64,000 nt of DNA from Escherichia coli. GTDB lineage: Bacteria > Pseudomonadota > Gammaproteobacteria > Enterobacterales > Enterobacteriaceae. Shown here in pieces: positions 2,737-57,332 of the stretch (its first letter is position 1; the number at the start of each line of letters is the position of its first letter). Where the stretch lies: the NCBI RefSeq assembly GCF_048403405.1, contig NZ_CP183129.1. One strand, 5' to 3'. The notes beneath the pieces are model-generated. The model had not been told where the DNA came from. It did not search any database and worked only from the letters and a program-made list of their open reading frames with translations. The translations under genes were made by a program, and so were the position numbers.

Positions 2737-3786
2737 ATGGCAACAGGCACGCAGCCCGATGCTGGGCAGATCCTCAACTCGCTGATTAACAGTATTTTGT
2801 TAATCGATGACAACCTGGCGATCCATTACGCCAACCCCGCCGCGCAACAACTGCTCGCCCAAAGCTCCCGCAAATTGTTTGGTACGCCGTTACCGGAACT
2901 GTTGAGCTACTTCTCATTAAATATCGAGCTGATGCAAGAAAGTCTGGAGGCGGGGCAAGGCTTTACCGATAACGAAGTGACGCTGGTCATCGACGGGCGC
3001 TCGCATATCCTTTCTGTGACGGCCCAGCGTATGCCGGACGGCATGATCCTGCTGGAGATGGCTCCGATGGATAACCAGCGCCGCTTAAGTCAGGAACAGC
3101 TACAGCACGCCCAGCAGGTTGCTGCCCGTGATTTAGTGCGCGGCCTGGCACATGAGATTAAAAATCCGCTTGGCGGTTTACGTGGCGCGGCGCAGCTGCT
3201 CAGCAAAGCATTACCTGACCCGTCACTACTCGAATATACCAAAGTGATTATCGAACAGGCGGACCGGCTGCGAAATCTGGTCGACCGTCTGTTGGGACCG
3301 CAACTGCCCGGTACGCGCGTTACCGAAAGTATTCATAAAGTGGCTGAACGCGTGGTGACGCTGGTGTCGATGGAACTGCCGGACAACGTGCGGTTGATTC
3401 GTGATTACGACCCCAGCCTGCCGGAACTGGCGCACGACCCGGATCAAATTGAGCAAGTGCTCCTGAATATTGTGCGCAATGCGCTACAGGCGCTGGGGCC
3501 AGAGGGTGGTGAAATCATTCTGCGTACCCGCACAGCTTTCCAACTGACCTTACACGGCGAGCGTTATCGGCTGGCGGCGCGAATTGATGTGGAAGATAAC
3601 GGGCCAGGTATTCCGCCTCATTTGCAGGATACACTGTTTTACCCGATGGTCAGCGGCCGCGAAGGTGGCACCGGGCTTGGCTTATCCATCGCCCGTAATT
3701 TGATTGATCAGCATTCAGGCAAAATTGAATTTACCAGTTGGCCAGGTCATACCGAGTTCTCGGTTTACCTGCCTATCAGGAAATAA
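2737..3786 (+). CDS. glnL: nitrogen regulation sensor histidine kinase NtrB (NRII)
   Basis: 349-aa [22 protein letters not shown]...; HisKA/HATPase motifs ([13 protein letters not shown]); glnLp -10 TATAAT at 2694-2699 overlaps an NtrC-like site GCACTAAAATGGTGCA (2700-2715). Confidence 0.95.
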
Positions 3787-3797
3787 AGGTGACGTTT

Positions 3798-5207
3798 ATG
3801 CAACGAGGGATAGTCTGGGTAGTCGATGACGATAGTTCCATCCGTTGGGTGCTTGAACGTGCGCTCGCTGGAGCGGGTTTAACCTGTACAACATTTGAGA
3901 ACGGCGCGGAGGTACTGGAGGCGCTGGCGAGCAAAACGCCGGATGTGCTGCTTTCAGATATCCGTATGCCGGGAATGGACGGGCTGGCGCTGCTCAAGCA
4001 GATTAAACAGCGCCATCCGATGCTTCCGGTCATCATTATGACCGCACATTCCGATCTGGATGCTGCCGTCAGCGCCTATCAACAAGGGGCATTTGATTAT
4101 CTGCCCAAACCGTTTGATATCGACGAAGCCGTGGCGCTGGTTGAGCGCGCCATCAGTCATTACCAAGAACAGCAGCAGCCGCGTAATGTTCAGCTTAACG
4201 GCCCAACGACCGATATCATCGGCGAAGCGCCAGCCATGCAGGACGTGTTCCGTATTATCGGTCGGCTTTCGCGTTCTTCTATTAGCGTGCTGATTAACGG
4301 CGAATCCGGCACCGGTAAAGAGCTGGTCGCTCATGCCCTGCATCGCCACAGTCCGCGAGCCAAAGCGCCGTTTATCGCGCTGAATATGGCGGCTATCCCG
4401 AAGGATTTGATCGAATCAGAACTGTTTGGTCACGAGAAAGGCGCGTTTACTGGCGCGAACACCATTCGTCAGGGGCGTTTTGAACAGGCCGATGGCGGCA
4501 CGTTATTTCTCGACGAAATTGGTGATATGCCGCTGGATGTGCAGACGCGTTTGCTGCGCGTGCTGGCAGACGGTCAGTTTTATCGCGTTGGCGGCTATGC
4601 GCCGGTGAAAGTGGATGTGCGGATTATCGCTGCCACTCACCAGAATCTTGAACAGCGGGTGCAGGAAGGTAAGTTCCGTGAGGATCTGTTCCACCGCCTG
4701 AACGTCATCCGCGTTCATCTGCCACCACTGCGTGAGCGTCGGGAAGATATTCCCCGCCTGGCACGCCATTTTTTACAGGTTGCCGCGCGCGAACTGGGCG
4801 TAGAAGCGAAGTTACTGCATCCGGAAACCGAAGCCGCGCTGACGCGTCTGGCGTGGCCAGGCAACGTGCGCCAGCTGGAAAACACCTGCCGCTGGCTAAC
4901 GGTAATGGCTGCCGGACAGGAAGTGTTGATTCAGGATTTGCCTGGCGAACTGTTTGAATCAACGGTTGCGGAGAGTACTTCGCAAATGCAACCGGACAGT
5001 TGGGCGACGCTGTTAGCGCAGTGGGCAGACAGGGCGCTGCGTTCCGGTCATCAAAATCTGCTTTCCGAAGCGCAGCCTGAGCTGGAGCGGACGTTACTGA
5101 CCACCGCGCTGCGACATACGCAGGGGCATAAACAGGAAGCGGCGCGGCTACTCGGCTGGGGGCGTAACACTCTGACGCGGAAGTTAAAAGAGCTGGGGAT
5201 GGAGTGA
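3798..5207 (+). CDS. glnG: nitrogen regulation response regulator NtrC (NRI), sigma-54 activator
   Basis: Starts [23 protein letters not shown] at the ATG at 3798, 11 nt after the glnL stop; the ORF-track start at 3738 is an in-frame upstream extension overlapping glnL; AAA+ GESGTGKE and GAFTGA motifs; C-terminal HTH. Confidence 0.95.
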
Positions 5208-5318
5208 TTCACGGCTTGTGTGTAAAGATTGATTATTGAGCGCAAATTGCTGGTATTTTGCGCTTTACTGTTCCGATAAGTTCAGTATGATCTTGCCCGG
5301 AAAACGGGGAGAGTCATT

Positions 5319-5429
5319 ATGCTGGAATCAATAATTAATCTGGTATCGAGTGGCGCAGTTGACAGCCACACACCGCAAACTGCCGTTGCTGCCGTGCTGT
5401 GTGCCGCGATGATTGGGCTGTTTAGCTGA
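5319..5429 (+). CDS. yshB: small hydrophobic protein (36 aa) MLESIINLVSSGAVDSHTPQTAVAAVLCAAMIGLFS
   Basis: ATG with SD GGGGAGAG 6 nt upstream; in the glnG-hemN spacer where the small protein YshB is annotated in K-12 (recalled); below the ORF-track size cutoff. Confidence 0.45.
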   Translation: MLESIINLVSSGAVDSHTPQTAVAAVLCAAMIGLFS

Positions 5430-5463
5430 GTTTCAGATTGCTGATGAAGTGCTCTTTGTTCAT

Positions 5464-5552
5464 GCCGGATGCGGCGTGAACGCCTTATCCGGTCTACAAA
5501 AGCAATATTTTCAACAGGTTTTGTAGGCCTGATAAGCGTAGCGCATCAGGCA
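5464..5552. repeat. REP/BIME element (two inverted REP units)
   Basis: GCCGGATGCGGCGTGAACGCCTTATCCGGTCTACA ... TGTAGGCCTGATAAGCGTAGCGCATCAGGCA; canonical enterobacterial REP palindromes. Confidence 0.7.
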
Positions 5553-5618
5553 ATCTTGTTCTCAGCACATTGATGGCGCTTTCGTTTTCTACTTTGTAAA
5601 CGAAGCGCCATTCACTAT

Positions 5619-6992
5619 TTAAATCACCCGTGAGAACTGCTGCATCCGCGCTTTCTGGCGCAGATAGGTATCAAAGCACATGCAAATGTTGCGGATCAGC
5701 AAGCGACCTTTCGCCGTCACCTGAATCCCCTTCTCATCCACATCCACCAGCCCATCTTTTGCTAACGGGGCGAGCAGCTTGAGATCTTCGGCAAAGTAAT
5801 CAGCGAAGTGCAAATCCCACTGTTGCTCAATGGGAGCGTAATCCAGACGGAAGTTGCAGATGAGCGACTTAATCACATCGCGGCGAATACAGTCATCACG
5901 CGTTAGCGCAATACCACGCCACAGCGCATTGCCTTGTTCATCCACTTGCTGATAGTACTGCTTCAACTCTTTCTGGTTCTGCGCGTAGCAGTCGCCAATC
6001 ATGCTGATGGCGGAAACGCCCATCCCCAGCAGATCGGTATCGCCCTGAGTGGTGTAGCCCTGGAAGTTACGATGCAGCACGCCTTCACGCTGGGCCACCG
6101 CCAGTTCGTCATCAGGACGGGCAAAGTGATCCATACCGATAAACTGATAGCCCGATTGCGTCAGGAAGGCGATGGTTTCCTGCAGGATATCGAGTTTTTG
6201 CTGCGGACTCGGCAAGTCAGCATCTTTGATTTTGCGCTGAGCAGCAAAAATGGTCGGCAGATGCGCATAGTTAAAGACGCTCAGACGATCGGGGTTCAGC
6301 TCCGCCACGCGTTTCAGGGTAAAAGCGAAACTCTCCGGCGTTTGTTTCGGCAGGCCGTAAATCAGGTCGATGTTGGTGGAGGTAAAACCAATCTCACGCG
6401 CATGGTTAAGCAGTGCAAAGATGAACTCTTCATCCTGCTCGCGGTTAACCAGACGTTGCACTTCTTTGTTGAAGTCCTGCACGCCCATGCTCAGGCGATT
6501 AAAGCCCTCGGCGCGTAAATGATCGAGTACATCCAGTTCGATTTCGCGCGGATCGACTTCGATCGAAATCTCCGCATCGGCATTGAACTGGAAGTTTTCG
6601 CGCAGCAGCTTCATCAGACGGCTGATTTGCGCTTTGTTCAGATACGTCGGCGTACCACCGCCCCAGTGCAGCTGGCTCACCTTGCGCCCGGCAAAAAGCG
6701 GTGCACGATGGACGATTTCTTGCTCCAGCGCGTCCAGATACTGATCGGCCTTGTGCTGCTGGCGAGTAACAATCTTATTGCAACCGCAGAAGTAACAAAG
6801 CTTATGGCAGAACGGAATATGTACGTAGAGAGATAATGGACGCTCAGGATAGCGCGCCACGGCTTGTAAAAACGCCTGTTCGCCGAAGTCTTCTGAAAAC
6901 TCCAGCGCGGTCGGGTACGAGGTGTATCGTGGCCCGGAATAGTTATATTTCTGGATCAGGGCCAGATCCCAGTCGATTTGCTGTACAGACAT
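5619..6992 (-). CDS. hemN: oxygen-independent coproporphyrinogen III oxidase (radical SAM)
   Basis: ORF MSMSVQQIDWDLALIQKYNYSGPRYTSYPTALEF; CxxxCxxC radical-SAM motif (HIPFCHKLCYFCGC); start taken at the second Met to give 457 aa (the alternative start at 6998 adds 2 aa). Confidence 0.93.
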   Translation of the reverse strand: MSVQQIDWDLALIQKYNYSGPRYTSYPTALEFSEDFGEQAFLQAVARYPERPLSLYVHIPFCHKLCYFCGCNKIVTRQQHKADQYLDALEQEIVHRAPLFAGRKVSQLHWGGGTPTYLNKAQISRLMKLLRENFQFNADAEISIEVDPREIELDVLDHLRAEGFNRLSMGVQDFNKEVQRLVNREQDEEFIFALLNHAREIGFTSTNIDLIYGLPKQTPESFAFTLKRVAELNPDRLSVFNYAHLPTIFAAQRKIKDADLPSPQQKLDILQETIAFLTQSGYQFIGMDHFARPDDELAVAQREGVLHRNFQGYTTQGDTDLLGMGVSAISMIGDCYAQNQKELKQYYQQVDEQGNALWRGIALTRDDCIRRDVIKSLICNFRLDYAPIEQQWDLHFADYFAEDLKLLAPLAKDGLVDVDEKGIQVTAKGRLLIRNICMCFDTYLRQKARMQQFSRVI

Positions 6993-7759: not shown

Positions 7760-8001
7760 AAAAAAGGCGACAGATTACTCTGTCGCCTTTTTTCCTGACT
7801 CATAACCCTTAACGGGTCTTACAATCCTTGCAGGCCGCCAACACACCCTGTTTTTCCATTAGCCGGAACAATCCGTGTTGATTCCATTTCCGTTTAATTA
7901 CGTCTCCGGACGTTTGTCTTCCTGACAATCCTCTGTCTTCGCCTCCTGGCGCTCCTGACCCTCATCCTGAGTCATTGTTCCTGTTAGCGTCCTCGCTCTA
8001 T
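7760..8001 (-). ncRNA. csrC: CsrC small RNA (CsrA-sequestering)
   Basis: Minus strand reads ATAGAGCGAGGACGCTAACAGGAACAATGACTCAGGATGAGGGTCAGGAGCG... with many GGA/AGGA motifs, ending in the terminator GGCGACAGAGTAATCTGTCGCC-TTTTTT; lies between engB and yihI as in E. coli. Confidence 0.72.
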
Positions 8002-9029: not shown

Positions 9030-9138
9030 TAAAAAACGCCCCAGTCATTACTGACTGGGGCGGCTAAAATATTCAGCCAAATCCGATTACGTGAAGTAAA
9101 AGGTCTGAAAGATAGAACATCTTACCTCTGTACCCTAC
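9030..9138 (-). ncRNA. spf: Spot 42 small RNA
   Basis: Minus strand reads GTAGGGTACAGAGGTAAGATGTTCTATCTTTCAGACCTTTTACTTCACGTAATCGGATTTGGCTGAATATTTTAGCCGCCCCAGTCAGTAATGACTGGGGCG-TTTTTTATT; matches the recalled Spot 42 sequence and its terminator; immediately downstream of polA. Confidence 0.88.
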
Positions 9139-13368: not shown

Positions 13369-13408
13369 GTTTTACTCGCCTCTGAATGAGCAGAGGCGAG
13401 TGAGTATT

Positions 13409-17622: not shown

Positions 17623-18131
17623 TACCGTTACTCGCCTTTGCCGCGTGGAGTGGTACCGGAAAAACTACGCTTTTGAAAAAACTGATCCCGGCATTATGCG
17701 CCAGAGGGATCCGTCCAGGGCTGATTAAGCATACGCACCATGATATGGATGTTGATAAGCCAGGCAAAGATAGCTATGAGCTGCGCAAGGCTGGCGCGGC
17801 ACAAACCATCGTTGCCAGCCAGCAACGATGGGCCTTGATGACGGAAACACCAGACGAAGAAGAGCTGGATCTACAGTTTCTCGCAAGTCGAATGGATACC
17901 TCAAAGCTGGATTTGATTCTGGTCGAAGGGTTTAAGCATGAAGAGATCGCAAAGATTGTGCTGTTTCGCGATAGAGCCGGACATCGACCTGAAGAATTAG
18001 TGATAGACAGGCATGTTATTGCTGTAGCCAGTGATGTGCCGCTTAATCTTGATGTCGCATTACTGGATATTAATGATGTTGAGGGGCTGGCTGATTTTGT
18101 GGTGGAGTGGATGCAAAAGCAGAACGGATAA
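17604..18131 (+). CDS. mobB: molybdopterin-guanine dinucleotide biosynthesis adapter protein MobB
   Basis: 175 aa with Walker A GTGKTT; overlaps the mobA 3' end by 19 nt. Confidence 0.9.
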
Positions 18132-18189: not shown

Positions 18190-18220
18190 CGCAAAAAGGC
18201 CATCCTGACGGATGGCCTTT
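18190..18220 (-). terminator. rRNA operon terminator downstream of 5S rRNA
   Basis: GGCCATCC-gtca-GGATGGCC hairpin followed on the minus strand by TTTTTGCGTT. Confidence 0.6.
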
Positions 18221-43318: not shown

Positions 43319-43574
43319 CGCCATAGTCGCTAAATCTGATGATTAAGCTCACACAATTTCAACGATTTTTTTAATCTCAAAACCATACAGCATCAAAAAA
43401 TTTGTTGCTGTATGCCACTCTTTGACTCCCTTCACATTCGTCATCACACCACCTGCTGAATGCAAAAATTTCGTTGCTGTGCGGCAAACTTTTTTCCTGT
43501 TTTGTGCCGCTTTTCTCCTGAATACTCGTTCTCAGAACAACTGGATCGTTTAAACATCAGACAGGAGATTTACC

Positions 43575-44243
43575 ATGACGCAATCCATTTTTCAGGCTCA
43601 ACCCTTTGAATTACCTTTTGATCCGCGCACAACTGCACTGGTCATGATCGACATGCAGCGTGACTTTGTCGAAGCAGGGGGCTTCGGTGAGGCACTGGGC
43701 AATGATGTTTCACTGGTACGCACGGCTATCGCACCATGTACAGAGGTGCTGGCAGCCGCACGTCAAAAAGGAATTATGGTTATTCATACTCGTGAAGGCC
43801 ATCGTGCAGACTTAAGCGACTGCCCGCCAGCCAAACTGACGCGCGGCGGAAAAACCTTTATTGGTGAACCAGGACCGATGGGACGCATTCTGGTCAGAGG
43901 TGAAGCAGGTCATGACATCATTCCTGAACTGTACCCGGTGGCAGGCGAACCGGTGATTGATAAGCCTGGCAAAGGCGCGTTTTATCAAACCGACTTACAT
44001 CTGATTTTGCAAAACCACGGTATCAAGACGCTGATAGTTTGTGGTGTAACAACCGAAGTTTGCGTAACCACCACCGTGCGCGAAGCAAATGATCGTGGCT
44101 ATGAATGCATTATCCCGGAAGATTGTGTCGGCTCCTATTTCCCGGAATTCCAGAAATACGCCCTCGAGATGATCAAAGCACAAGGTGCCATTTTCGGTTG
44201 GGTTACTGATTCCAAAGCCATTATTGCAGGTCTGGAAGGCTAA
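43575..44243 (+). CDS. isochorismatase-family cysteine amidohydrolase (RutB / biuret hydrolase / N-carbamoylsarcosine amidase-like); first gene of accessory module A
   Basis: 222 aa; SD AGGAG; VMIDMQRDF Asp motif and the C-G-V-T-T-E-V-C-V nucleophile region typical of isochorismatase-like hydrolases; exact enzyme not determinable. Confidence 0.78.
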   Translation: MTQSIFQAQPFELPFDPRTTALVMIDMQRDFVEAGGFGEALGNDVSLVRTAIAPCTEVLAAARQKGIMVIHTREGHRADLSDCPPAKLTRGGKTFIGEPGPMGRILVRGEAGHDIIPELYPVAGEPVIDKPGKGAFYQTDLHLILQNHGIKTLIVCGVTTEVCVTTTVREANDRGYECIIPEDCVGSYFPEFQKYALEMIKAQGAIFGWVTDSKAIIAGLEG

Positions 44244-44248
44244 CGCCG

Positions 44249-45109
44249 ATGGCACAGATTACGCTTTGCGCATCGTCGTTGGGATATCTTTTCCCGCAGA
44301 ATGAAACGCAAGATTTACGTCTGCATAGCGCTTTTAAACATGCGGTAAATCTGTATTCAGAAGCGGGAACATTCATCACTCTGTTGTGTGCGCAAACGTA
44401 TCTGAATCTCCCTGATGCTGCCAGAGTCTGGCTACCTGAATGTTGGGACTGGCGAAGAGAGATTGCCCATTCCGATCCCGTTCAGTTAACCCCAGGCTTA
44501 CTGCAGACACCTCGCTTTTGTGTGGCTCTCGATAACGCAACGCTCTGGCAGCCGTCATTTGTGGGAGGAAGGCTGACACTTGAGGCGTTCCCTTTGGTTT
44601 TCCAGCACTACCCAACGATGGCATCGCAACGGCTTTTATTTTGTCTGGAGCATAACGTTCAAAGCACATTGCACCTGCCGGATAGTCTCACGCACCAGGG
44701 ATTAGCGATTATGGAACATCCAGATGCGCTGGAACGCCAGGTGCCACAACTGATCGGCTTTGGTAAAGGCTTAACGCCCGATGGAGATGACTATTTGTTG
44801 GGCTATCTGGCAGCACTCTGGTTATGGCAACTCCCTGCACCACTTGCCGATCATCAATACCGGTTGCAGCAGGCAATTGATCAACATGCGCACAACACCA
44901 CGGATATCAGTCGTCATTATCTGGAGCGTGCGCTTCAGGGACATTTTTCAGAACCGATTTGCCAGTTACTCGCACAACTGGTTGGGAGCGCATCGGCAAT
45001 GACAATCGCATCCTGTGCAGAACAGGTCATGCAATTTGGCGCAACGTCAGGAGTAGATTGCCTTGCAGGAATGCTGCATGGCTTTCGAACCCTGAACACC
45101 ATGAATTGA
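44249..45109 (+). CDS. DUF2877-like protein (YahE/YlbF-type)
   Basis: 286 aa; 5 nt after the upstream stop; G-rich loop IGFGKGLTPDGDD; family assignment is by size and gene context (recalled family), not by search. Confidence 0.55.
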   Translation: MAQITLCASSLGYLFPQNETQDLRLHSAFKHAVNLYSEAGTFITLLCAQTYLNLPDAARVWLPECWDWRREIAHSDPVQLTPGLLQTPRFCVALDNATLWQPSFVGGRLTLEAFPLVFQHYPTMASQRLLFCLEHNVQSTLHLPDSLTHQGLAIMEHPDALERQVPQLIGFGKGLTPDGDDYLLGYLAALWLWQLPAPLADHQYRLQQAIDQHAHNTTDISRHYLERALQGHFSEPICQLLAQLVGSASAMTIASCAEQVMQFGATSGVDCLAGMLHGFRTLNTMN

Positions 45110-45203
45110 TTTCAACCTTTTCTCCTGTAGCTCATTTATGGCGCTACACGGGGATGCTTTGCCCGAATTTTACTATCGGGCGGAATGAAACAGGCGTAAC
45201 AGC

Positions 45204-46763
45204 ATGAAAGTTAAATATAAAGTTTTCAGTAATCTTTATCAGGACTCAGTTTCTCTGATGCAGATTTCCGCGCAAATCAGCAAGTTGCCCGGTATTCAAC
45301 AGGCCTCGGTCGTCATGGGAACACCCAATAATCTCGAACAATTGCGCGATGCGGGTCTGGGTAACGAAATCAACGCCAGTCCCAATGATTTAGTGATTGC
45401 AGTCATGGGTGAAGAAGATATTTGCAATGAAGCACTGGCACTGGCCCAGCAACGTCTGACCAGCAAACCCGATGATGAAACGGATAGTGGCATTAAAACA
45501 CCGGAAAATGTCAGCCTGGACATGGCACTGGAAGCCGAACCCGAAGCCAACCTGGCACTCATTTCTGTACCGGGAGACTACGCCGCCGCCGAAGCAATTA
45601 AAGCGTTAAACCTCGGAATGAACGTGATGATGTTCAGCGATAACGTCAGTATCGCGCAGGAAAAATCCATCAAAATACTTGCCCGAGAACGTCAGCGCAT
45701 CGTAATGGGACCTGACTGTGGAACCGCCATTGTTAACGGCATTCCGTTAGGCTTCGCTAATGTGGTGAAACGCGGAGCAATTGGTGTTATTGGCGCGTCA
45801 GGCACCGGGCTACAGGAAGTGACTTGCCGAATCGACCAGCTCGGAGCGGGTATTTCTCAGGCGCTGGGAACAGGCGGGCATGATCTCAGTGAAGAGATTG
45901 GTGGAATATCGATGCTCTTCGCTTTAGATGCGCTGGCGCAAGACGATGAAACTCGCGTAATTGTGCTGATTTCAAAACCGCCTTCACCGATCGTTGCCCG
46001 GACTATTCTGGAGCGTGCCGAGGCTTGTGGAAAACCCGTGGTGGTGAATTTCCTCGGTGCGAATCCGCATGATCTGGCACGTCCCAATATCACTGCCGCC
46101 ACCACACTTGCCAGCGCCGCCGACATCGCTGTGGCGTTACTGAATGCTCAGCCACTTCCGGCTGTCGAGACCGAGATTTCCTGCGCCGATCTCACAATGT
46201 TACAAAACGCCTGTCAGCGCCTGCCAGCCCATCGCCAGGCGATACGCGGTGTTTTCGCCGGAGGAACCTTCTGCTACGAAGCGCAACTTATCTGCCAGCA
46301 AAAGGGATTCCGCGCCGCCTCCAATACGCCAGTTGCGAGTAATCGTACTCTGGCAAATATCTGGCAAAGCGAAGATCACACGCTGATCGATATGGGCGAC
46401 GATGATTTCACCCGTGGCAAACCGCATCCAATGATCGACCCGACTCTGCGCAATCAACGTCTGCTCAACGAACTCAACGACTCACACACTGCCGTCGTGT
46501 TATTCGACCTGGTACTTGGTTATGGCGCTTCCGCTACACCTGCCAGCGAATTACTGGACCAACTTTCACACATCGACATGAATAACGCACCGTTGCTGAT
46601 TGCGCACGTTTGCGGAACGGAAGCTGATCCGCAAATACGCAGTCAGCAGATAAGCGCACTACAAAATGCGGGCATCATCATTGCCAGCAGCAATGCACAG
46701 GCGGCGCTATGGGCCAGCGTCGTTGCGCAGACTCAGTTGCAGAAAAAGGGGCTAAACGCATGA
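45204..46763 (+). CDS. FdrA-like protein (NDP-forming acyl-CoA synthetase / succinyl-CoA synthetase alpha-like fold)
   Basis: 519 aa; shares recalled FdrA blocks: QDSVSLM, LALISVPG-YAA, NVMMFSDNV, VMGPDCGT, GVIGASGTG, DMGDDDFTRGKPHPMIDPTLRNQ. Confidence 0.7.
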   Translation: MKVKYKVFSNLYQDSVSLMQISAQISKLPGIQQASVVMGTPNNLEQLRDAGLGNEINASPNDLVIAVMGEEDICNEALALAQQRLTSKPDDETDSGIKTPENVSLDMALEAEPEANLALISVPGDYAAAEAIKALNLGMNVMMFSDNVSIAQEKSIKILARERQRIVMGPDCGTAIVNGIPLGFANVVKRGAIGVIGASGTGLQEVTCRIDQLGAGISQALGTGGHDLSEEIGGISMLFALDALAQDDETRVIVLISKPPSPIVARTILERAEACGKPVVVNFLGANPHDLARPNITAATTLASAADIAVALLNAQPLPAVETEISCADLTMLQNACQRLPAHRQAIRGVFAGGTFCYEAQLICQQKGFRAASNTPVASNRTLANIWQSEDHTLIDMGDDDFTRGKPHPMIDPTLRNQRLLNELNDSHTAVVLFDLVLGYGASATPASELLDQLSHIDMNNAPLLIAHVCGTEADPQIRSQQISALQNAGIIIASSNAQAALWASVVAQTQLQKKGLNA

Positions 46764-48184
46764 ATACCTTATTTAATCAGCCTTTGAAGGTTGTGAACGC
46801 GGGACTACACAGTTTTGCTGACAATATTCAACATGCCGGGGGAAGCGCAATTGCACTCAACTGGCAGCCACCAGCACAAGGCGATATTGACGCTGGATTG
46901 GATCTGGCATCGTTGCTACGTCATCCACTGGTAGAAAATGCCAACCAAATCGCCATGACACGTTATCTCGAAGCACAGCCCGTGCTGGTAGATGTCATGC
47001 TCGCTAAAGAGGCCATTCCAGCAATGGCTGAACAAAAACGTATTTTGCACTCTGGCCCGCCGATTGCCTGGGAAGAGATGTGTGGTCCGGTAAAAGGGGC
47101 GATTATTGGTGCCATGCTGTACGAAGGTTGGGCCACCAGCCAGCAAGACGCTGAAAACCAGATAAACGCAGGCGAAATCGACCTTGCCCCTTGTCATCAT
47201 TATCACGCGGTTGGCCCAATGGCTGGCATCATCAGCCCGTCGATGCCGTTATGGGTGGTAGAAAACAAAACCAACGGCCACCGTACTTTTAGCAATTTCA
47301 ATGAAGGTCTGGGTAAGGTTCTCCGTTTTGGCGCCAATAACGATGAAGTTCTCAATCGTCTGGCCTGGATGCGCGATGAACTGGCGCCGGCAATGAAAGC
47401 AGCAATCGCACAACACGGCGAGCTGGAACTCAAGCCATTAATGGCGCAGGCGCTGCATATGGGGGATGAAGTTCATAACCGCAATGCTGCCGCTACCGGT
47501 TTGCTGATTAAGCGCCTGCTCCCGGCATTGCTGGCCTGCTCTCTTCCACAGGAACATATCCAGCGCGTCGTGGCATTTATCACCGGTAACGATCACTTCT
47601 TCCTCAATCTGTCGATGGCTGCCTGTAAAGCAATGATGGATGCCGCCGCCAATGTACCGTTCAGTTCAATGGTTACGGTGATGGCGCGTAACGGGGTGAA
47701 TTTTGGTATTCGGCTTTCCGGTACTGGCGATCGCTGGTTCCAGGCTCCTGCCAATGCCGTTGAAGGTCTGTTCTTCCCCGGATTTGGCGTTGACGACGCT
47801 GCTGCTGACCTGGGTGATAGCGCAATTACTGAAACCGCAGGTGTGGGTGGCTTCGCGATGGCGTCGTCTCCGGCGATCGTCAAATTTGTGGGAGGCACCC
47901 CTGCCGATGCCACCAATAACAGCCGTCGGATGCAAGCCATCACCCTCGGCGGTAACCCCGCATTTACACTTCCAGCCCTCAATTTTGCCCCCACCGCAGC
48001 AGGGATTGATGCGCGTAAAGTGACCGATCGCGGCATTTTACCGGTCATCAATACGGGTATCGCCCACAAACAAGCGGGGGTCGGGCAAATTGGTGCCGGG
48101 ATCACCACTGCGCCGATGGCCTGTTTTGTCGCCGCTGTACGTGCACTGGCGGAGATCGTCGCAAAGGAGAACCATCATGGTTAA
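46760..48184 (+). CDS. DUF1116-like protein (YlbE/YahG-type)
   Basis: 474 aa from MNTLFNQPLKVVNAGLHSF; ATG overlaps the upstream TGA (ATGA coupling); size and position match the YahG/YlbE partner of FdrA-like proteins (recalled). Confidence 0.6.
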   Translation: MNTLFNQPLKVVNAGLHSFADNIQHAGGSAIALNWQPPAQGDIDAGLDLASLLRHPLVENANQIAMTRYLEAQPVLVDVMLAKEAIPAMAEQKRILHSGPPIAWEEMCGPVKGAIIGAMLYEGWATSQQDAENQINAGEIDLAPCHHYHAVGPMAGIISPSMPLWVVENKTNGHRTFSNFNEGLGKVLRFGANNDEVLNRLAWMRDELAPAMKAAIAQHGELELKPLMAQALHMGDEVHNRNAAATGLLIKRLLPALLACSLPQEHIQRVVAFITGNDHFFLNLSMAACKAMMDAAANVPFSSMVTVMARNGVNFGIRLSGTGDRWFQAPANAVEGLFFPGFGVDDAAADLGDSAITETAGVGGFAMASSPAIVKFVGGTPADATNNSRRMQAITLGGNPAFTLPALNFAPTAAGIDARKVTDRGILPVINTGIAHKQAGVGQIGAGITTAPMACFVAAVRALAEIVAKENHHG

Positions 48185-49133
48185 GCCACTGGCTGTTGTC
48201 GCGGTTGGCGGCAATGCGCTCATTCAGGACGAGCAACGCAATAGTATTCCCGATCAATATGTTGCAGTGATGGAAAGCGTGCAGCATATCGTTGATATGG
48301 TTGAAGCCGGATGGGACCTGGTGCTAACCCACGGTAATGGCCCGCAGGTGGGCTTTATTCTGCGCCGCTCTGAACTCGCCAGTAACGAAGTTTCTCCGGT
48401 TCCACTTGATTACGCCGTGGGTGATACACAAGGTGCAATTGGCTACATGTTCCAGAAAGCGCTGCATTACGAATTGGCTCGCCGTGGCATAAACAAACCG
48501 GTAATTGCCCTGGTGACACAAACGCGAGTCAGCCCACATGACGATGCTTTCGCCAACCCCAGTAAACCGATTGGCGCGTTTCTCGATGAAGCAACGGCCC
48601 AACAACGCCAACAACAACTCGGCTGGACGCTGATGGAGGACGCCGGGCGTGGTTGGCGGCGTACAGTTCCCTCTCCTGCACCACTGGAAATTATTGAGCA
48701 CGACACCATCGCTCACCTGGTGCGCCAGGGATATCTGGTTATTGCCTGCGGCGGCGGCGGTATTCCGGTGGTGCGAGACGGGCAACAACTGAAAGGTGTA
48801 GAAGCCGTGATCGATAAAGATCTGGCCTCCGCGCTGCTCGCCAGTCAGTTAGGCGCAGATCTGCTGGTGATCCCCACCGGTGTAGAAAAAGTGGCGATTA
48901 ACTTTGGTACACCACAACAACAGTGGCTCGACGCTATCAGCGTTGCCGAAGCGCAAACGCTGTTGCGGGAAGGTCAGTTTGGTGTCGGCAGTATGCAACC
49001 CAAAGTGGAAGCCATTGTTGATTTCATCAATGCCAGCCAGCAACAAGGCAAACAGGCCAGCGGCCTGATTACTTCACCGCAAACCATAAAAGCAGCCCTG
49101 GCGCATCAGAGCGGTACATGGATAACCCTTTAA
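48177..49133 (+). CDS. carbamate kinase
   Basis: 318 aa from MVKPLAVVAVGGNALIQDEQ; SD AAGGAGA; carbamate/amino-acid kinase motifs VVAVGGNAL and IACGGGGIPV; start overlaps the upstream gene by 8 nt. Confidence 0.85.
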   Translation: MVKPLAVVAVGGNALIQDEQRNSIPDQYVAVMESVQHIVDMVEAGWDLVLTHGNGPQVGFILRRSELASNEVSPVPLDYAVGDTQGAIGYMFQKALHYELARRGINKPVIALVTQTRVSPHDDAFANPSKPIGAFLDEATAQQRQQQLGWTLMEDAGRGWRRTVPSPAPLEIIEHDTIAHLVRQGYLVIACGGGGIPVVRDGQQLKGVEAVIDKDLASALLASQLGADLLVIPTGVEKVAINFGTPQQQWLDAISVAEAQTLLREGQFGVGSMQPKVEAIVDFINASQQQGKQASGLITSPQTIKAALAHQSGTWITL

Positions 49134-49149
49134 ATCTCTGGAGAACACA

Positions 49150-49539
49150 ATGACTACAACGCTTTTAGCCGTTAACGGAACGCTGATGCGCGGCCTGGAA
49201 CTCAACCCAAATATGAAAAAAGCGGGCGGTATTTTTGTCCGTGAAGACCGAACTGACGCCCATTACCGGTTGTGGAGTATTAACGATCGCCATCCGGGAA
49301 TGATTCGCGTGAATGAAGGAGGAACACACGTCGACGTAGAAATTTGGCAATTACCGCTGGCCAGTTTTGCCGCTCTGTTAATGAGCGAACCCGCTGGGCT
49401 GGCAATTGGCAAAATCAAACTTGCCGATGGTAGCGAAGTGCTGGGCGTACTGGCAGAAAACTGGCTGACCGAAGGCCAACGGGAAATTACAGAACTGGGC
49501 GGCTGGCGCAAATACACCGGGCATTTTCATACTGTGTAA
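49150..49539 (+). CDS. small GGCT/AIG2-like protein (gamma-glutamyl cyclotransferase-like fold), function unknown
   Basis: 129 aa; N-terminal LLAVNGTLMRG resembles the YGSL/GTLxxG motif of AIG2/GGCT-like proteins; weak, motif-based. Confidence 0.45.
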   Translation: MTTTLLAVNGTLMRGLELNPNMKKAGGIFVREDRTDAHYRLWSINDRHPGMIRVNEGGTHVDVEIWQLPLASFAALLMSEPAGLAIGKIKLADGSEVLGVLAENWLTEGQREITELGGWRKYTGHFHTV

Positions 49540-49564
49540 CGCGCATTTATAAAGGGAACATACT

Positions 49565-50788
49565 ATGCGTAAAAAAGAAGAGAATCTGAATACGGCATCA
49601 GGATTGCGTATTGCCATGATTTTGCTGGGTATTGCCGTCACACCTGTGCTGTTGTCATCCTCAAGCCTCGGCAATCAACTTTCCAGCGGCAGTTTAATTA
49701 GCGTCGTATTGTTAGGCGGCGTCATTCTGACCTTACTTTCAGCCATCACCATTAGCGTGGGAGAAAAAGCCCGCCTGCCAACGTATGGCATTGTGAAATA
49801 TTCGTTTGGCGAAAAAGGGGCCATCGCCATTAACATTTTGATGGCGATAAGTCTGTTCGGCTGGATTGCCGTTACCGCCAATATGTTTGGTCATTCGGTA
49901 CATGACTTACTGGCTCAACATGGACTGGAAGTTCCACTGGCACTGTTAGTGGCGGCTGGCTGTGTCATTTTTGTCGCCTCTACGGCATTTGGCTTTGCCG
50001 TTCTGGGAAAAATTGCCCAGGTTGCCGTGCCGGTTATCGCGCTGGTGCTGTGTTACATCCTCTATGTGGCAACCCATACCGAAGTGGCAGTACCAGCGGC
50101 GATTGTGGAGATGAATACAGGTGTCGCCGTTTCCACCGTTGTTGGCACCATTATTGTGCTGGTTGCCACACTGCCTGATTTCGGTAGTTTTGTGCATAAC
50201 CGCAAACATGCACTGATTGCCGCAGGCGTGACGTTTCTGGTTGCCTACCCTCTGCTCTACTGGGCGGGTGCAACGCCGAGCGCCATTAGTGGTCAGGGAT
50301 CTTTACTGGGTGCGATGGCGGTATTCGGTGCGGTTCTGCCTGCGGCGCTGTTGTTGATTTTCGCCTGCGTCACCGGTAACGCGGGCAATATGTTCCAGGG
50401 CACGCTGGTGGTTTCCACACTGCTTACCCGCTTTCCCAAATGGCAGATTACCGTGGCGCTGGGTATCCTTTCCGCCATCGTAGGCAGTATGGATATTATG
50501 GCGTGGTTTATTCCGTTTCTGCTGTTCCTGGGTATCGCCACGCCACCCGTTGCCGGAATTTATATCGCTGACTTTTTCCTTTATCGCCGTAATGGCTATC
50601 AAGAGTCAGTGTTAGCCCAGGAGTCACAGATTAAAGTGCTGACATTCGCAGCATGGATCATAGGCGCAGCGGTTGGCTTTATGACCGTAAAAGGCTTATT
50701 CACCCTGACGACGATCCCTTCGGTAGACTCGATTCTGGTGGCATGTATCGCGTATGCGATTCTCAGTCGGGCAAGTCAACACCGCTAA
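49565..50788 (+). CDS. NCS1-family permease (CodB-like nucleobase/cytosine-type transporter)
   Basis: 407 aa, multi-TM; C-terminal block IPPVAGIYIADFFLYRRNGY closely resembles the recalled CodB IPPVGGVIIADYLMNRRRYE. Confidence 0.75.
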   Translation: MRKKEENLNTASGLRIAMILLGIAVTPVLLSSSSLGNQLSSGSLISVVLLGGVILTLLSAITISVGEKARLPTYGIVKYSFGEKGAIAINILMAISLFGWIAVTANMFGHSVHDLLAQHGLEVPLALLVAAGCVIFVASTAFGFAVLGKIAQVAVPVIALVLCYILYVATHTEVAVPAAIVEMNTGVAVSTVVGTIIVLVATLPDFGSFVHNRKHALIAAGVTFLVAYPLLYWAGATPSAISGQGSLLGAMAVFGAVLPAALLLIFACVTGNAGNMFQGTLVVSTLLTRFPKWQITVALGILSAIVGSMDIMAWFIPFLLFLGIATPPVAGIYIADFFLYRRNGYQESVLAQESQIKVLTFAAWIIGAAVGFMTVKGLFTLTTIPSVDSILVACIAYAILSRASQHR

Positions 50789-50865
50789 TTCCTGGGTATA
50801 CTCAGGCAATGATTACGGCTGAATCTGGAGAGATTCAGCCACTTTACCACTGACCAGGGAGCCTT

Positions 50866-51771
50866 ATGTTCATCTCAGACGAAACGCTTCGTGTTATTCA
50901 TCTGGTCGCCAGACACCAGAGCATTACCATCGCAGCCGAGCAGTTAAATAAAGTCCCTTCCGCCATCAGTTACACCATCAAGAAAGCGGAAGAGAGCCTG
51001 GGCGTTGAACTGTTCATTCGTAAGGGACGCTATATTGAATTATCGCCAGCGGGAAGTTACTTCATCGAACATAGCAAAACTATTCTTGGCGACCTGGAAG
51101 CATTAAAGCGCAACACAGTGCTGATTCACGATGGTATTGAGCGTGAACTGACAATTGCGGTAAACAATATTATTCCTGGTAATTTGCTGGTGGCATTTAT
51201 TCGAGATTTTGAACGGCAATTCACATCAACAACACTGACGGTAGATCTTGAGGTATACAACGGCTGCTGGGATGCGCTGTACAGTAAGCGTGCTGATCTG
51301 GTCTACGGTGCTCCTCATGCAGTACCAAGTAGTGAAGGCATCATTAGCGAACCGGTCGGACAAATGGAATGGGATTTTGTCGTCAGCCCACTCCACCCAC
51401 TGGCAGCGAAGCGGCATCCATTAGAAAACAGTGAATTGCGTCATTATCCAGCGGTTTGTATCCGCGATACCTCCGTTAACTTCCCCCCGATGCAAGCCTG
51501 GTTGTTGGAAGGACAAAAACCCATTTTTGTTCCTGACTTCGCTACGGCAATCGCCTTAATAGAACAAAACGTCGGTATTGGTTATATTCCACATCATCTG
51601 GCATTGCCGTTATTGAACAGCGGTAAATTGCTTAAAAAGCCAATGCGCGAACATAAACACGCCACCAAGTTATTTCTTGCCGCTCGTTCCGATGGTATGG
51701 GCAAAGCCTGTCAGTGGTGCATAGAATATTTAAGAAACCCGCAATTAATGACACGATTTGTATTTAATTGA
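50866..51771 (+). CDS. LysR-family transcriptional regulator
   Basis: 301 aa; N-terminal wHTH (SITIAAEQLNKVPSAISYTIKKAEESLGVELFIRKGR) and LysR substrate-binding domain; SD GGGAG. Confidence 0.85.
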   Translation: MFISDETLRVIHLVARHQSITIAAEQLNKVPSAISYTIKKAEESLGVELFIRKGRYIELSPAGSYFIEHSKTILGDLEALKRNTVLIHDGIERELTIAVNNIIPGNLLVAFIRDFERQFTSTTLTVDLEVYNGCWDALYSKRADLVYGAPHAVPSSEGIISEPVGQMEWDFVVSPLHPLAAKRHPLENSELRHYPAVCIRDTSVNFPPMQAWLLEGQKPIFVPDFATAIALIEQNVGIGYIPHHLALPLLNSGKLLKKPMREHKHATKLFLAARSDGMGKACQWCIEYLRNPQLMTRFVFN

Positions 51772-51970
51772 CAATACAATGATAAAAATATAAGTCTTGC
51801 TTTAATTAGAGCGCCCGTTTAAATTATTTTTGTGCAGTTGACGTAACTCATGAAAATTAACCGGTCTGTTAATCATTACGTTCACTGCACACCTTCATTT
51901 TTTCACACCTATCCACGCCTGAAAACTATGTTATAATCAGCACTTTCTGTCAGAATGAAATTTACTAATT

Positions 51971-57008: not shown

Positions 57009-57214
57009 CTCATGAAATAATTTTCTCAAACACAAAATCTCATGAAATTTTATTTCATTCCAATGCATCAGTATGAAATGTGAAGCTAGTCACAAGAAAG
57101 ATCATAGGTTGATATGTTTTTCATTAAAAAACATATAGATATCAAGTAATTTTTAATATGTGATGGAGAGGCAGATAGAAAAAATGGCGGAAATGACGAA
57201 ATTTATTTCATGAG
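57009..57214 (-). promoter_or_regulatory. control region of the SIS-PTS-transketolase operon: consensus CRP site (TGTGAAGCTAGTCACA, 57078-57093) and repeated CTCATGAAAT motifs (57009-57018, 57039-57048; inverted copy 57205-57214)
   Basis: Motifs read directly in a ~290-bp AT-rich spacer upstream of the first operon gene; a possible -10 TAAAAT on the minus strand at 57052-57047. Confidence 0.55.
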
Positions 57215-57309: not shown

Positions 57310-57332
57310 ACCGGGTGGTATTACCACCCGGT
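57310..57332 (-). terminator. metE terminator hairpin (probably bidirectional)
   Basis: ACCGGGTGG-tatta-CCACCCGGT, 8 nt after the metE stop, followed by a T-rich run on both strands. Confidence 0.6.

What the first reader, a model, noticed from the sequence alone, without database searches (positions are those of the whole stretch)
50817..50840. Perfect 10-bp stem-loop between the permease gene and the terminal LysR gene
GGCTGAATCT-ggag-AGATTCAGCC lies 29 nt after the permease stop and 25 nt before the LysR start, with no T-run. It may be an RNA-stabilising or processing element, or an attenuator setting regulator expression relative to the structural genes. A LysR gene co-directional at the end of its target operon, rather than divergent, is unusual.
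Basis: seen in the sequence. Interest (0 to 1): 0.3.

Follow-up and report, generated by a model that had tools for sequence, protein, structure and literature searches.

The report
Conserved RNA hairpin gating a LysR gene
The stem-loop is real and is the tip of an ~80-base RNA fold, kept by compensating mutations in related bacteria, that sits where relatives have the operon's terminator and pairs the regulator gene's ribosome-binding site with the bases just after the permease stop codon; this is an ordinary kind of operon-internal control element, though this one has not been described.

Summary
GGCTGAATCT-GGAG-AGATTCAGCC lies at 50817-50840, 28 nt past the permease stop and 25 nt before the lysR ATG. 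No T-run follows it.

The window is an E. coli accessory island, found in 1555 of 5426 genomes and on ColV-type plasmids. It carries an uncharacterised operon: cysteine hydrolase, allH/fdrA/ylbE paralogues, carbamate kinase, AH_C protein, NCS1 permease, lysR.

A strong hairpin sits at this junction in 38 of 40 distinct orthologous spacers, but its sequence differs between genera. In 23 distinct spacers from Escherichia, Citrobacter, Lelliottia, Edwardsiella and Buttiauxella, 7 of its 10 pairs show compensatory changes.

It is the apical helix of a three-helix fold. The outer helix pairs TTCCTGG, directly after the stop codon, with CCAGGGA, the lysR Shine-Dalgarno. A conserved TATAAT-like box lies in the bulge.

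G·U cells outnumber A·C cells 32 to 9, so the sense RNA is what folds. It is not a LysR operator, not a dispersed repeat, and matches no Rfam family. Rahnella, Silvimonas and Aeromonas have a true terminator at the same place.

Best reading: a boundary element without a U-tract that limits or gates lysR expression from operon read-through. The box probably gives lysR its own weak promoter. It is a new member of a known kind, of modest interest.

The parts
49565..50788 (+). NCS1 ('cytosine permease' family) transporter gene, last structural gene of the operon; stop TAA at 50786-50788
   Evidence: ORF list; RefSeq annotation of identical DNA; Pfam PF02133 on orthologues
50789..50795 (+). 5' arm of the outer helix (TTCCTGG), starting directly after the stop codon; complementary to the lysR Shine-Dalgarno
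   Evidence: MFE fold of the spacer. In 23 spacers the four core pairs are paired in every sequence, and pair 50793-50856 is U-A in 14, C-G in 8 and U-G in 1
50797..50802 (+). TATACT, a -10-like hexamer (TATAAT in most orthologues) in the bulge between the outer and middle helices; candidate -10 of a lysR promoter, with a predicted start near 50808-50809
   Evidence: T, A, T invariant and the best-conserved unpaired segment. Kept about 63 nt before the ATG where the permease is not adjacent (L016, L018, L028). A TATAAT-like hexamer lies about 32 nt before the ATG in loci where lysR is the first gene. No -35 match
50802..50806 (+). 5' arm of the middle helix (TCAGG)
   Evidence: All 6 consensus pairs of this helix show changes on both sides across 23 spacers
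50817..50840 (+). The flagged hairpin: 10-bp perfect stem, GGAG loop, dG -15.7 kcal/mol; apical helix of the spacer fold
   Evidence: RNAalifold recovers it with 7 of 10 pairs compensatory. 96.5% of cells paired in 23 sequences
50848..50853 (+). 3' arm of the middle helix (C-A-CTGA, A50849 bulged)
50854..50860 (+). 3' arm of the outer helix (CCAGGGA), overlapping the lysR Shine-Dalgarno AGGGAG (50856-50861)
50866..51771 (+). lysR-type regulator gene (301 aa; HTH_1 + LysR_substrate)
43384..43414 (+). Probable LysR operator at the operon promoter: CATACAGCA-N13-TGCTGTATG with core ATCAAAAAATTTGTT (43392-43406). Used as a control showing what this regulator's box looks like
   Evidence: ATCAAA-N3-TTTGAT-like palindromes (T-N11-A) recur upstream of the first gene in all lineages. 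This is the best match in the window, with none in the spacer

Best explanation
The hairpin is a cis-acting RNA structure on the sense (operon) transcript. It marks the 3' boundary of the structural-gene message, the spot where relatives carry the operon's intrinsic terminator. In the E. coli lineage it has no U-tract. It forms the tip of a three-helix fold whose outer helix pairs the lysR Shine-Dalgarno (50854-50860) with the 7 nt that follow the permease stop codon (50789-50795).

The proposed effect is that lysR on read-through operon mRNA is translationally masked. A ribosome terminating at the permease stop must melt the outer helix, so lysR translation is at most weakly coupled to permease translation. 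Untranslated lysR RNA would also be open to Rho-dependent termination and 3' trimming back to the hairpin, which would protect the upstream message. The conserved TATAAT-type box in the bulge probably gives lysR a weak promoter of its own. Transcripts from it would lack the anti-SD arm and would be translatable independently of operon induction.

Shown: the conserved fold, its strand, its position, the SD pairing and the conserved box. Inferred: masking or coupling, Rho and exonuclease involvement, and promoter activity.
For: A strong hairpin lies between the permease and lysR in 38 of 40 distinct orthologous spacers, with differing sequences.

Covariation. In the MAFFT-only alignment of 16 spacers, 90.4% of cells are paired against 20-49% when partners are slid. 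Twelve pairs change on both sides, and 0 of 500 shuffles reach the observed score. With 23 spacers, 7 of them not used to build the model, 90.9% are paired and 14 of 23 pairs are compensatory. That includes 7 of 10 inner pairs, 6 of 6 middle pairs, and outer pair 50793-50856 (U-A 14, C-G 8, U-G 1).

Strand. G·U cells number 32 and A·C cells 9, so the + strand RNA is the folding strand.

Thermodynamics. The E. coli spacer's minimum-energy structure is exactly this fold, z = -3.58. The outer helix has mean probability 0.73 across the spacers and 0.89 in E. coli.

Position. A true terminator occupies the same place in Rahnella, Silvimonas, L023 and L037. One also follows the permease in Aeromonas, where the permease is the last gene. 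The hairpin is absent from the lysR leader where lysR is the first gene, and it is decayed or absent where no permease precedes lysR.

The TATAAT box travels with lysR. The RNA-unfolding coupling model, with rpmI-rplT at +52 nt spacing, is established (review PMC12548453).
Against: There are no transcript or translation data for this locus.

Outer-helix covariation rests on one pair. Its other positions are the SD itself and a conserved TTCC that could be constrained for other reasons.

With 60 nt of upstream context, the E. coli main allele leaves the SD 47% unpaired. A local hairpin CCUGGG/CUCAGG competes with the outer helix, and truncating at the predicted start does not raise accessibility (0.47 against 0.34).

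Flipping the inner stem in silico barely changes the outer helix in E. coli (0.89 to 0.92). The flagged hairpin is therefore not needed thermodynamically for SD masking.

Serratia and Rahnella spacers lack the outer and middle helices. The putative promoter has no -35. In Rahnella a full terminator lies downstream of the box, which is awkward for a promoter reading.
Confidence: 0.5

Rival explanations
1. The hairpin is a plain leaky intrinsic terminator (attenuator). It stops a fraction of RNA polymerases after the permease gene so that lysR is transcribed at a low fixed ratio. The outer and middle helices are incidental.
For: It has a stable stem with 5 of 10 G-C pairs and a 4-nt loop. Orthologous positions hold canonical terminators with U-tracts in Rahnella, Silvimonas, L023 and L037, and in Aeromonas after the permease. 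No terminator-like site follows lysR itself.
Against: The E. coli tail ACTTTACC has only 3 T in 8, with the first at position 3 and T-score 0.90. All E. coli-type spacers score below 1.5, and the scan does not call a terminator. The tail bases are used in the covarying middle helix, which a terminator does not need.
Confidence: 0.17
2. The fold is a positive coupling device. Its purpose is to make LysR synthesis proportional to permease translation, giving positive feedback on induction, rather than to insulate lysR from the operon.
For: The anti-SD arm starts within 1 nt of the stop codon in all 23 sequences, so a terminating ribosome must open it. The fold brings the stop and start codons to the two ends of one helix. 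This is the same logic as rpmI-rplT (PMC12548453).
Against: Lineages with a real terminator at this position block rather than couple. The conserved -10 box suggests independent expression. Coupling efficiency is known to fall with distance, and 77 nt is long (PMC12548453).
Confidence: 0.13
3. The hairpin is a 5'-UTR element of lysR's own transcript, which would start about 8 nt upstream at roughly 50808-50809. It would act as a 5' stem-loop that protects that mRNA from RNase E or RppH-dependent decay.
For: The conserved TATAAT box lies 14 nt upstream of the stem at a fixed distance from the ATG. The box, hairpin and SD travel together in Serratia sp. DD3, where 1.8 kb is inserted after the permease.
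Against: Where lysR is the first gene, the box is kept but there is no hairpin in the leader. The hairpin is decayed or absent in L018, L019 and L141, which lack an upstream permease. The covarying middle and outer 5' arms lie upstream of the predicted start, so the selected RNA is the read-through transcript.
Confidence: 0.1
4. The hairpin presents a GGA motif in its loop to an RNA-binding protein such as CsrA, which would bridge to the GGA in the SD and repress lysR. Alternatively the loop acts as an SD-like decoy or standby site for 30S subunits.
For: The E. coli loop is GGAG, with the SD AGGGAG 26 nt downstream. GGA occurs in the apical loop in 11 of 23 spacers, in about 5 of 11 lineages (read from the alignment). 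That is more than the roughly 8% I estimate by chance.
Against: The motif is not conserved. Edwardsiella, Lelliottia, C. amalonaticus, B. izardii and all Serratia and Rahnella loops lack GGA. No binding data exist.
Confidence: 0.06
5. The palindrome is a DNA operator for LysR itself or another dimeric regulator.
For: It is a perfect 24-bp dyad close to the lysR start. LysR-type regulators commonly autoregulate (general knowledge).
Against: The arm sequences change wholesale between genera by compensatory substitutions, while the LysR HTH is invariant. There are 32 G·U cells, which are meaningless for duplex DNA symmetry. The regulator's conserved box ATCAAA-N3-TTTGAT upstream of the operon has no match with 3 or fewer mismatches in 50789-50865.
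Confidence: 0.02

Closest known systems
RNA-unfolding translational coupling across a structured spacer (E. coli rpmI-rplT, +52 nt; phage MS2 coat-lysis/replicase)
   Same: The downstream SD is held in a helix whose partner lies within reach of the ribosome finishing the upstream ORF, and the spacer is tens of nucleotides long (review PMC12548453; fold).
   Different: Here the partner strand lies just after the stop codon, not inside the upstream ORF. The downstream gene is a transcription factor rather than a stoichiometric partner. Dependence on upstream translation is untested.
Operon-internal partial terminators and attenuators that lower distal-gene expression (for example the terminator between rpsU and dnaG in the rpsU-dnaG-rpoD operon, which also has internal promoters; from general knowledge)
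   Same: A stem-loop lies between a highly expressed proximal block and a low-abundance distal gene, with a likely internal promoter. Orthologues carry true terminators at this site.
   Different: The E. coli element has no U-tract. The -10 box lies upstream of the hairpin, not downstream of it.
Intercistronic stem-loops that block 3'-5' exonucleases and stabilise upstream cistrons (REP in malE-malF, puf operon hairpins; from general knowledge)
   Same: [quoted passage not shown]
   Different: It is a single-copy, locus-specific sequence, not a dispersed REP. No decay data exist.
Canonical Rho-independent terminator
   Same: Stem length, loop size and position after the last structural gene. 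It is positionally equivalent to terminators in Rahnella, Silvimonas and Aeromonas.
   Different: It lacks the defining U-tract.

Membership tests
Rho-independent (intrinsic) terminator | G+C-containing stem of about 5-14 bp with a 3-8 nt loop | tested here: met
   10 bp, 5 G-C pairs, 4-nt loop, dG -15.7 kcal/mol
Rho-independent (intrinsic) terminator | U-tract immediately 3' of the stem (about 5 or more U in 8) | tested here: not met
   Tail ACTTTACC has 3 T in 8 and T-score 0.90. The consensus scan does not list it
Rho-independent (intrinsic) terminator | Transcript 3' ends map just after the stem | not testable with these tools
   No Term-seq or RNA-seq data available
SD-sequestering intercistronic structure (RNA-unfolding translational coupling) | The downstream gene's SD is base-paired in a conserved structure | tested here: met
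   Outer helix 50789-50795 / 50854-50860. Its four core pairs are paired in 23 of 23 sequences, and one pair is compensatory (U-A 14, C-G 8). It is part of the MFE fold. The support is weaker with long flanks in the E. coli main allele
SD-sequestering intercistronic structure (RNA-unfolding translational coupling) | The partner strand lies where a ribosome on the upstream ORF occludes it | tested here: met
   The arm starts 0-1 nt after the stop codon in all 23 spacers. That a terminating ribosome covers these bases is general knowledge
SD-sequestering intercistronic structure (RNA-unfolding translational coupling) | Downstream translation depends on upstream translation | not testable with these tools
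   Needs reporter fusions with premature stops
Dispersed extragenic palindromes (REP/BIME-like) | Many copies per genome sharing a consensus | tested here: not met
   The 45-nt query finds a median of 1 place per genome, in 1556 genomes, about the same number (1555-1558) that match the island queries. It has one copy in the window
LysR-type regulator operator (T-N11-A dyad) | Sequence conserved together with the regulator's HTH, and resembling its box at the regulated promoter | tested here: not met
   The HTH is invariant but the arms covary. The box ATCAAA-N3-TTTGAT is absent from the spacer
Any described RNA family (Rfam 15) | Covariance-model match | tested here: not met
   Only chance-level hits with E above 3 in 50000-51500
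Sigma-70 promoter (for the TATACT box in the bulge) | -10 hexamer close to TATAAT | tested here: met
   TATACT at 50797-50802. It is TATAAT in most orthologues, with T1, A2 and T3 invariant, and it is also kept in lysR-first loci
Sigma-70 promoter (for the TATACT box in the bulge) | -35 hexamer at 16-18 nt, or a TGn extended -10 | tested here: not met
   Not listed by the scan. The aligned -35 region inside the permease gene is not conserved. TGn is present only in Serratia sp. DD3
Sigma-70 promoter (for the TATACT box in the bulge) | A mapped primary 5' end | not testable with these tools
   No dRNA-seq data found

The most novel reading that the evidence does not exclude
The spacer is a two-isoform switch. 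A -10 box sits in the bulge of an SD-sequestering hairpin. Operon read-through mRNA then carries the anti-SD and keeps lysR silent, or only ribosome-coupled, with Rho and exonucleases trimming back to the hairpin. The internally initiated mRNA lacks the anti-SD and is freely translated. This would uncouple a terminal, co-directional LysR activator from the positive feedback its position would otherwise create. It would do at the translation level what a terminator does in Rahnella and Silvimonas.
Probability: 0.25. Interest if true: 0.5.

Novelty: new member of a known kind. Interest (0 to 1): 0.33.

Why it matters
The operon is an uncharacterised nitrogen-catabolic paralogue of the allFGH/allK oxamate branch. 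It is carried by about 29% of E. coli genomes and by ColV-type virulence plasmids. Knowing how its regulator is expressed would help anyone trying to induce or dissect it. More generally, the locus is a clean, covariation-supported case for asking how bacteria deal with a LysR activator placed at the end of its own target operon. Different genera appear to have solved this differently at the same site: a terminator in some, a masked ribosome-binding site in others. It does not challenge existing concepts.

Tried and rejected
1. DNA operator reading. Rejected: the arms covary, G·U cells are in excess, and the real LysR box is absent from the spacer.

2. REP-like repeat. Rejected: single copy per genome.

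3. Rfam. Nothing found.

4. Chromosome-versus-plasmid conservation. The spacer sits in a 155-nt identical run (50732-50886) although the loci are about 92-93% identical. Runs of 186-191 nt also occur inside coding sequence, so this is not diagnostic.

5. 'Clamp' role for the flagged stem, meaning it is needed to bring the anti-SD and SD together. Not supported: flipping one arm in silico leaves the outer helix at 0.92 in E. coli, and the mean falls only from 0.73 to 0.58.

6. SD accessibility in full-length versus promoter-proximal transcripts. The predicted difference is clear for Buttiauxella A111, L134, Citrobacter and Lelliottia, but absent for the E. coli main allele.

7. Extending the covariance model to Serratia and Rahnella spacers. 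No matches, because those lineages have only the hairpin.

8. Literature search for transcription-start maps of island-positive E. coli. Nothing usable.

9. The second MAFFT alignment (A4) shifted the E. coli middle-helix arm by one column, so I did not use it for counting. I used the MAFFT-only A3 and the model-fitted A5 (which leans towards the structure).

Full report
**Observation**

The window holds GGCTGAATCT-GGAG-AGATTCAGCC at 50817-50840.
- The permease ORF (49565-50788) stops at TAA 50786-50788.
- The lysR ORF (50866-51771) starts 25 nt after the stem.
- The tail ACTTTACC is not a T-run: 3 T in 8, T-score 0.90. The terminator scan does not call it.

A perfect 10-bp hairpin somewhere in 64 kb is not improbable. 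Shuffles give 0.73 on average, and 47% have at least one. The other seven such hairpins in the window look like ordinary terminators. Falling inside one 77-nt spacer is about a 1e-3 event by my arithmetic. The 83-nt spacer folds far better than shuffles: -28.4 kcal/mol, z = -3.58, 0 of 200.

**Context**

The DNA is an E. coli accessory island between ysgA/udp and metE. Its operon runs from 43575 to 51771 on the + strand:
- cysteine hydrolase
- AllH-family protein
- FdrA
- YlbE-family protein
- carbamate kinase
- AH_C ('allophanate hydrolase-related') protein
- NCS1 permease
- LysR

An unrelated rpiR/tkt/ptsG/hxlB block follows. The island is in 1555 of 5426 complete E. coli genomes. It is also on ColV/IncF-type plasmids, at about 93% identity by BLAST and 91.7% over my MAFFT alignment. 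A genome paper lists it as an uncharacterised region, 'GR 29', and guesses at nitrogen acquisition from a pyrimidine-like compound (PMC12928451). The characterised relatives are allFGH and allK of the oxamate branch (titles).

**Comparative evidence**

A genome-collection scan with an alignment of LysR orthologues returned 80 loci. A metagenome scan and eight contig look-ups added more.

Gene order:
- ...carbamate kinase, AH_C, permease, lysR is kept in Enterobacterales, Silvimonas/Amantichitinum, Dyella, Paraburkholderia and Caballeronia.
- Vibrionaceae, Shewanella and Motilimonas put lysR first and co-directional.
- Aeromonas has lysR convergent with the permease.
- Crenobacter and Laribacter have lysR divergent from the hydrolase.

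Of 40 distinct permease-lysR spacers, 38 contain a strong hairpin, and its sequence is unrelated between genera. Examples:

| Lineage | 5' arm |
|---|---|
| E. coli | GGCTGAATCT |
| Buttiauxella izardii | AGTGACCTGGCTC |
| Serratia | ACTGCCAGC |
| Rahnella | AAGGAAATCCGTC |

Rahnella, Silvimonas, L023 and L037 add a U-tract, which makes a canonical terminator. The E. coli-type spacers do not.

**The structure**

RNAalifold on a MAFFT alignment of 16 distinct spacers recovers the flagged stem. These come from Escherichia, Citrobacter, Lelliottia, Edwardsiella, Buttiauxella and metagenomes. Seven of the 10 pairs are compensatory.

The individual folds suggested two more helices, and I tested a three-helix model:
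- outer: 50789-50795 with 50854-50860;
- middle: 50802-50806 with 50848-50853;
- inner: 50816-50841.

| Measure | 16 spacers, MAFFT only | 23 spacers, model-fitted |
|---|---|---|
| Cells paired | 90.4% | 90.9% |
| Cells paired when partners are slid | 20-49% | 24-48% |
| Pairs changed on both sides | 12 (slid controls 1-7) | 14 of 23 |
| Shuffles reaching the covariation score | 0 of 500 | 0 of 500 |

Seven of the 23 spacers were not used to build the model. That alignment leans towards the structure.

Per helix in the 23-spacer set:
- Inner: 96.5% paired, 7 of 10 pairs compensatory.
- Middle: all 6 pairs compensatory.
- Outer: four core pairs are paired in every sequence. Pair 50793-50856 switches U-A (14) to C-G (8) in what look like at least three or four lineages: L113/L134, Edwardsiella, B. 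izardii/L176 and L190/L191.

G·U cells (32) outnumber A·C cells (9), so the sense-strand RNA is the folding species.

The outer 3' arm CCAGGGA overlaps the lysR Shine-Dalgarno AGGGAG. The 5' arm TTCCTGG begins directly after the permease stop codon.

**The box in the bulge**

Between the outer and middle helices lies TATACT (50797-50802). It is TATAAT in most orthologues and is the best-conserved unpaired segment.
- It keeps its distance of about 63 nt to the lysR ATG where the permease is not adjacent. This holds in Serratia sp. Ag1, S. microhaemolytica, and Serratia sp. DD3 with its 1.8-kb insertion.
- A TATAAT-like hexamer also sits about 32 nt before the ATG where lysR is the first gene. 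There is no hairpin after it in those loci.

I read it as the -10 of a weak lysR promoter, with about 0.6 confidence. No -35 is evident. The predicted start near 50808 lies downstream of the outer and middle 5' arms. Those helices can therefore form only in read-through transcripts, and their covariation says that this transcript is under selection.

**What the hairpin is not**

- Not the LysR operator. The regulator's HTH is invariant. A conserved ATCAAA-N3-TTTGAT (T-N11-A) palindrome recurs upstream of the first operon gene in every lineage. Its best window match is at 43392-43406, and there is none in the spacer.
- Not a dispersed repeat. It occurs once per genome.
- Not an Rfam family.

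**What it most likely does**

Its position equals that of the operon-end terminator.
- Aeromonas, where the permease is the last gene, has a canonical terminator about 35-45 nt after it.
- Several lysR-downstream lineages have U-tract versions.
- The hairpin is missing from lysR leaders that have no upstream operon.

I therefore take it as the 3' boundary stem-loop of the structural message. In E. coli it has lost its U-tract, so it is at best a weak terminator and probably an exonuclease barrier. It is combined with SD sequestration, which keeps lysR on read-through mRNA silent or only coupled to permease termination. This is the RNA-unfolding model, as for rpmI-rplT (PMC12548453). The internal box supplies basal LysR independently.

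Terminator-bearing and SD-masking lineages would then be two solutions to one problem: limiting feedback on a regulator placed after its own operon. All functional steps are inferred.

**Caveats**

- The outer-helix covariation is a single pair.
- With long flanks, the E. coli main allele has a competing local hairpin, and the SD is 47% unpaired.
- Disrupting the flagged stem in silico hardly affects the outer helix, so its contribution must be something other than nucleating SD masking.
- Serratia and Rahnella lack the outer helices.
- In Rahnella a full terminator lies downstream of the box, which I cannot explain.
- GGA occurs in the apical loop in 11 of 23 spacers. This hints at CsrA or an SD-like decoy, but the motif is not conserved.

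**Verdict**

The feature is real and is an RNA structure under selection. It is a new, undescribed member of known kinds of operon-internal control elements. Interest is modest.

Noticed in passing
window 43384-43414 and about 43455-43485: There are two related boxes upstream of the first operon gene: CATACAGCATCAAAAAATTTGTTGCTGTATG and CTGAATGCAAAAATTTCGTTGCTGTG. The core ATCAAA-N3-TTTGAT (T-N11-A) recurs upstream of the orthologous hydrolase gene in Vibrionaceae, Shewanella, Crenobacter and others. This is probably the LysR operator pair of the operon.
   Followed up: partly
window 43575-51771: This is an uncharacterised eight-gene operon paralogous to allFGH/allK, with an added cysteine hydrolase, AH_C-domain protein and NCS1 permease. 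It is in 1555 of 5426 E. coli genomes and, at about 93% identity, on ColV/IncF and IncK plasmids. Its substrate is unknown.
   Followed up: partly
L002 (pAPEC-O2-ColV) 3071-6260: In this plasmid copy the hydrolase, allH and fdrA homologues each align in two pieces (tblastn), and the record annotates no genes there. They are possibly frameshifted pseudogenes or old sequencing errors. In plasmid pLH50-c-A the lysR copy is split into two ORFs.
   Followed up: no
window 50791-50806: A local alternative hairpin CCUGGG-UAUA-CUCAGG, specific to E. coli, competes with the outer helix and contains the TATACT box in its loop. It wins in the MFE when longer flanks are folded.
   Followed up: partly
window 50827-50830 and orthologous loops: GGA or SD-like purine motifs (GGAG, AGGAA, AGGAUA, GAGGAAC) occur in the apical loop in 11 of 23 spacers. 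This may be a CsrA site or a 30S decoy.
   Followed up: no
window 50803-50815 and orthologues: A second conserved -10-like box, GCATAAT, lies about 11 nt after the first TATAAT in Buttiauxella, Serratia and Rahnella. It is degenerate in E. coli (GCAATGAT, or GCAATAAT in strain E69). It could be a tandem -10 element, a sigma-70 pause signal, or the A-tract of the Rahnella terminator.
   Followed up: no
L028 (Serratia sp. DD3) 4133-6000: A 1.8-kb insertion carrying another membrane-protein-like ORF lies between the permease and lysR. The box, hairpin and SD module is retained directly after the inserted gene, here with a perfect extended -10 (TGGTATAAT).
   Followed up: no
window 51772-51970: No terminator-like hairpin follows lysR. 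The AT-rich spacer contains TTGACA overlapping the lysR stop (51769-51774) and GTTATAAT about 40 nt before the rpiR start, probably the rpiR promoter.
   Followed up: no
window 7760-7793, 9037-9062, 13374-13401, 17806-17831, 18195-18220, 57112-57136, 57310-57332: Seven other perfect hairpins of 10 bp or more occur in the window, far more than the 0.73 expected. Several have flanking A or T runs and look like ordinary terminators.
   Followed up: no
L013 (record titled Chryseobacterium sp. 18061) versus L014 (Citrobacter sp. 18056): The two loci gave identical tblastn coordinates and identities and identical model matches. The 'Chryseobacterium' assembly contig is probably contaminating or mislabelled enterobacterial DNA.
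   Followed up: no
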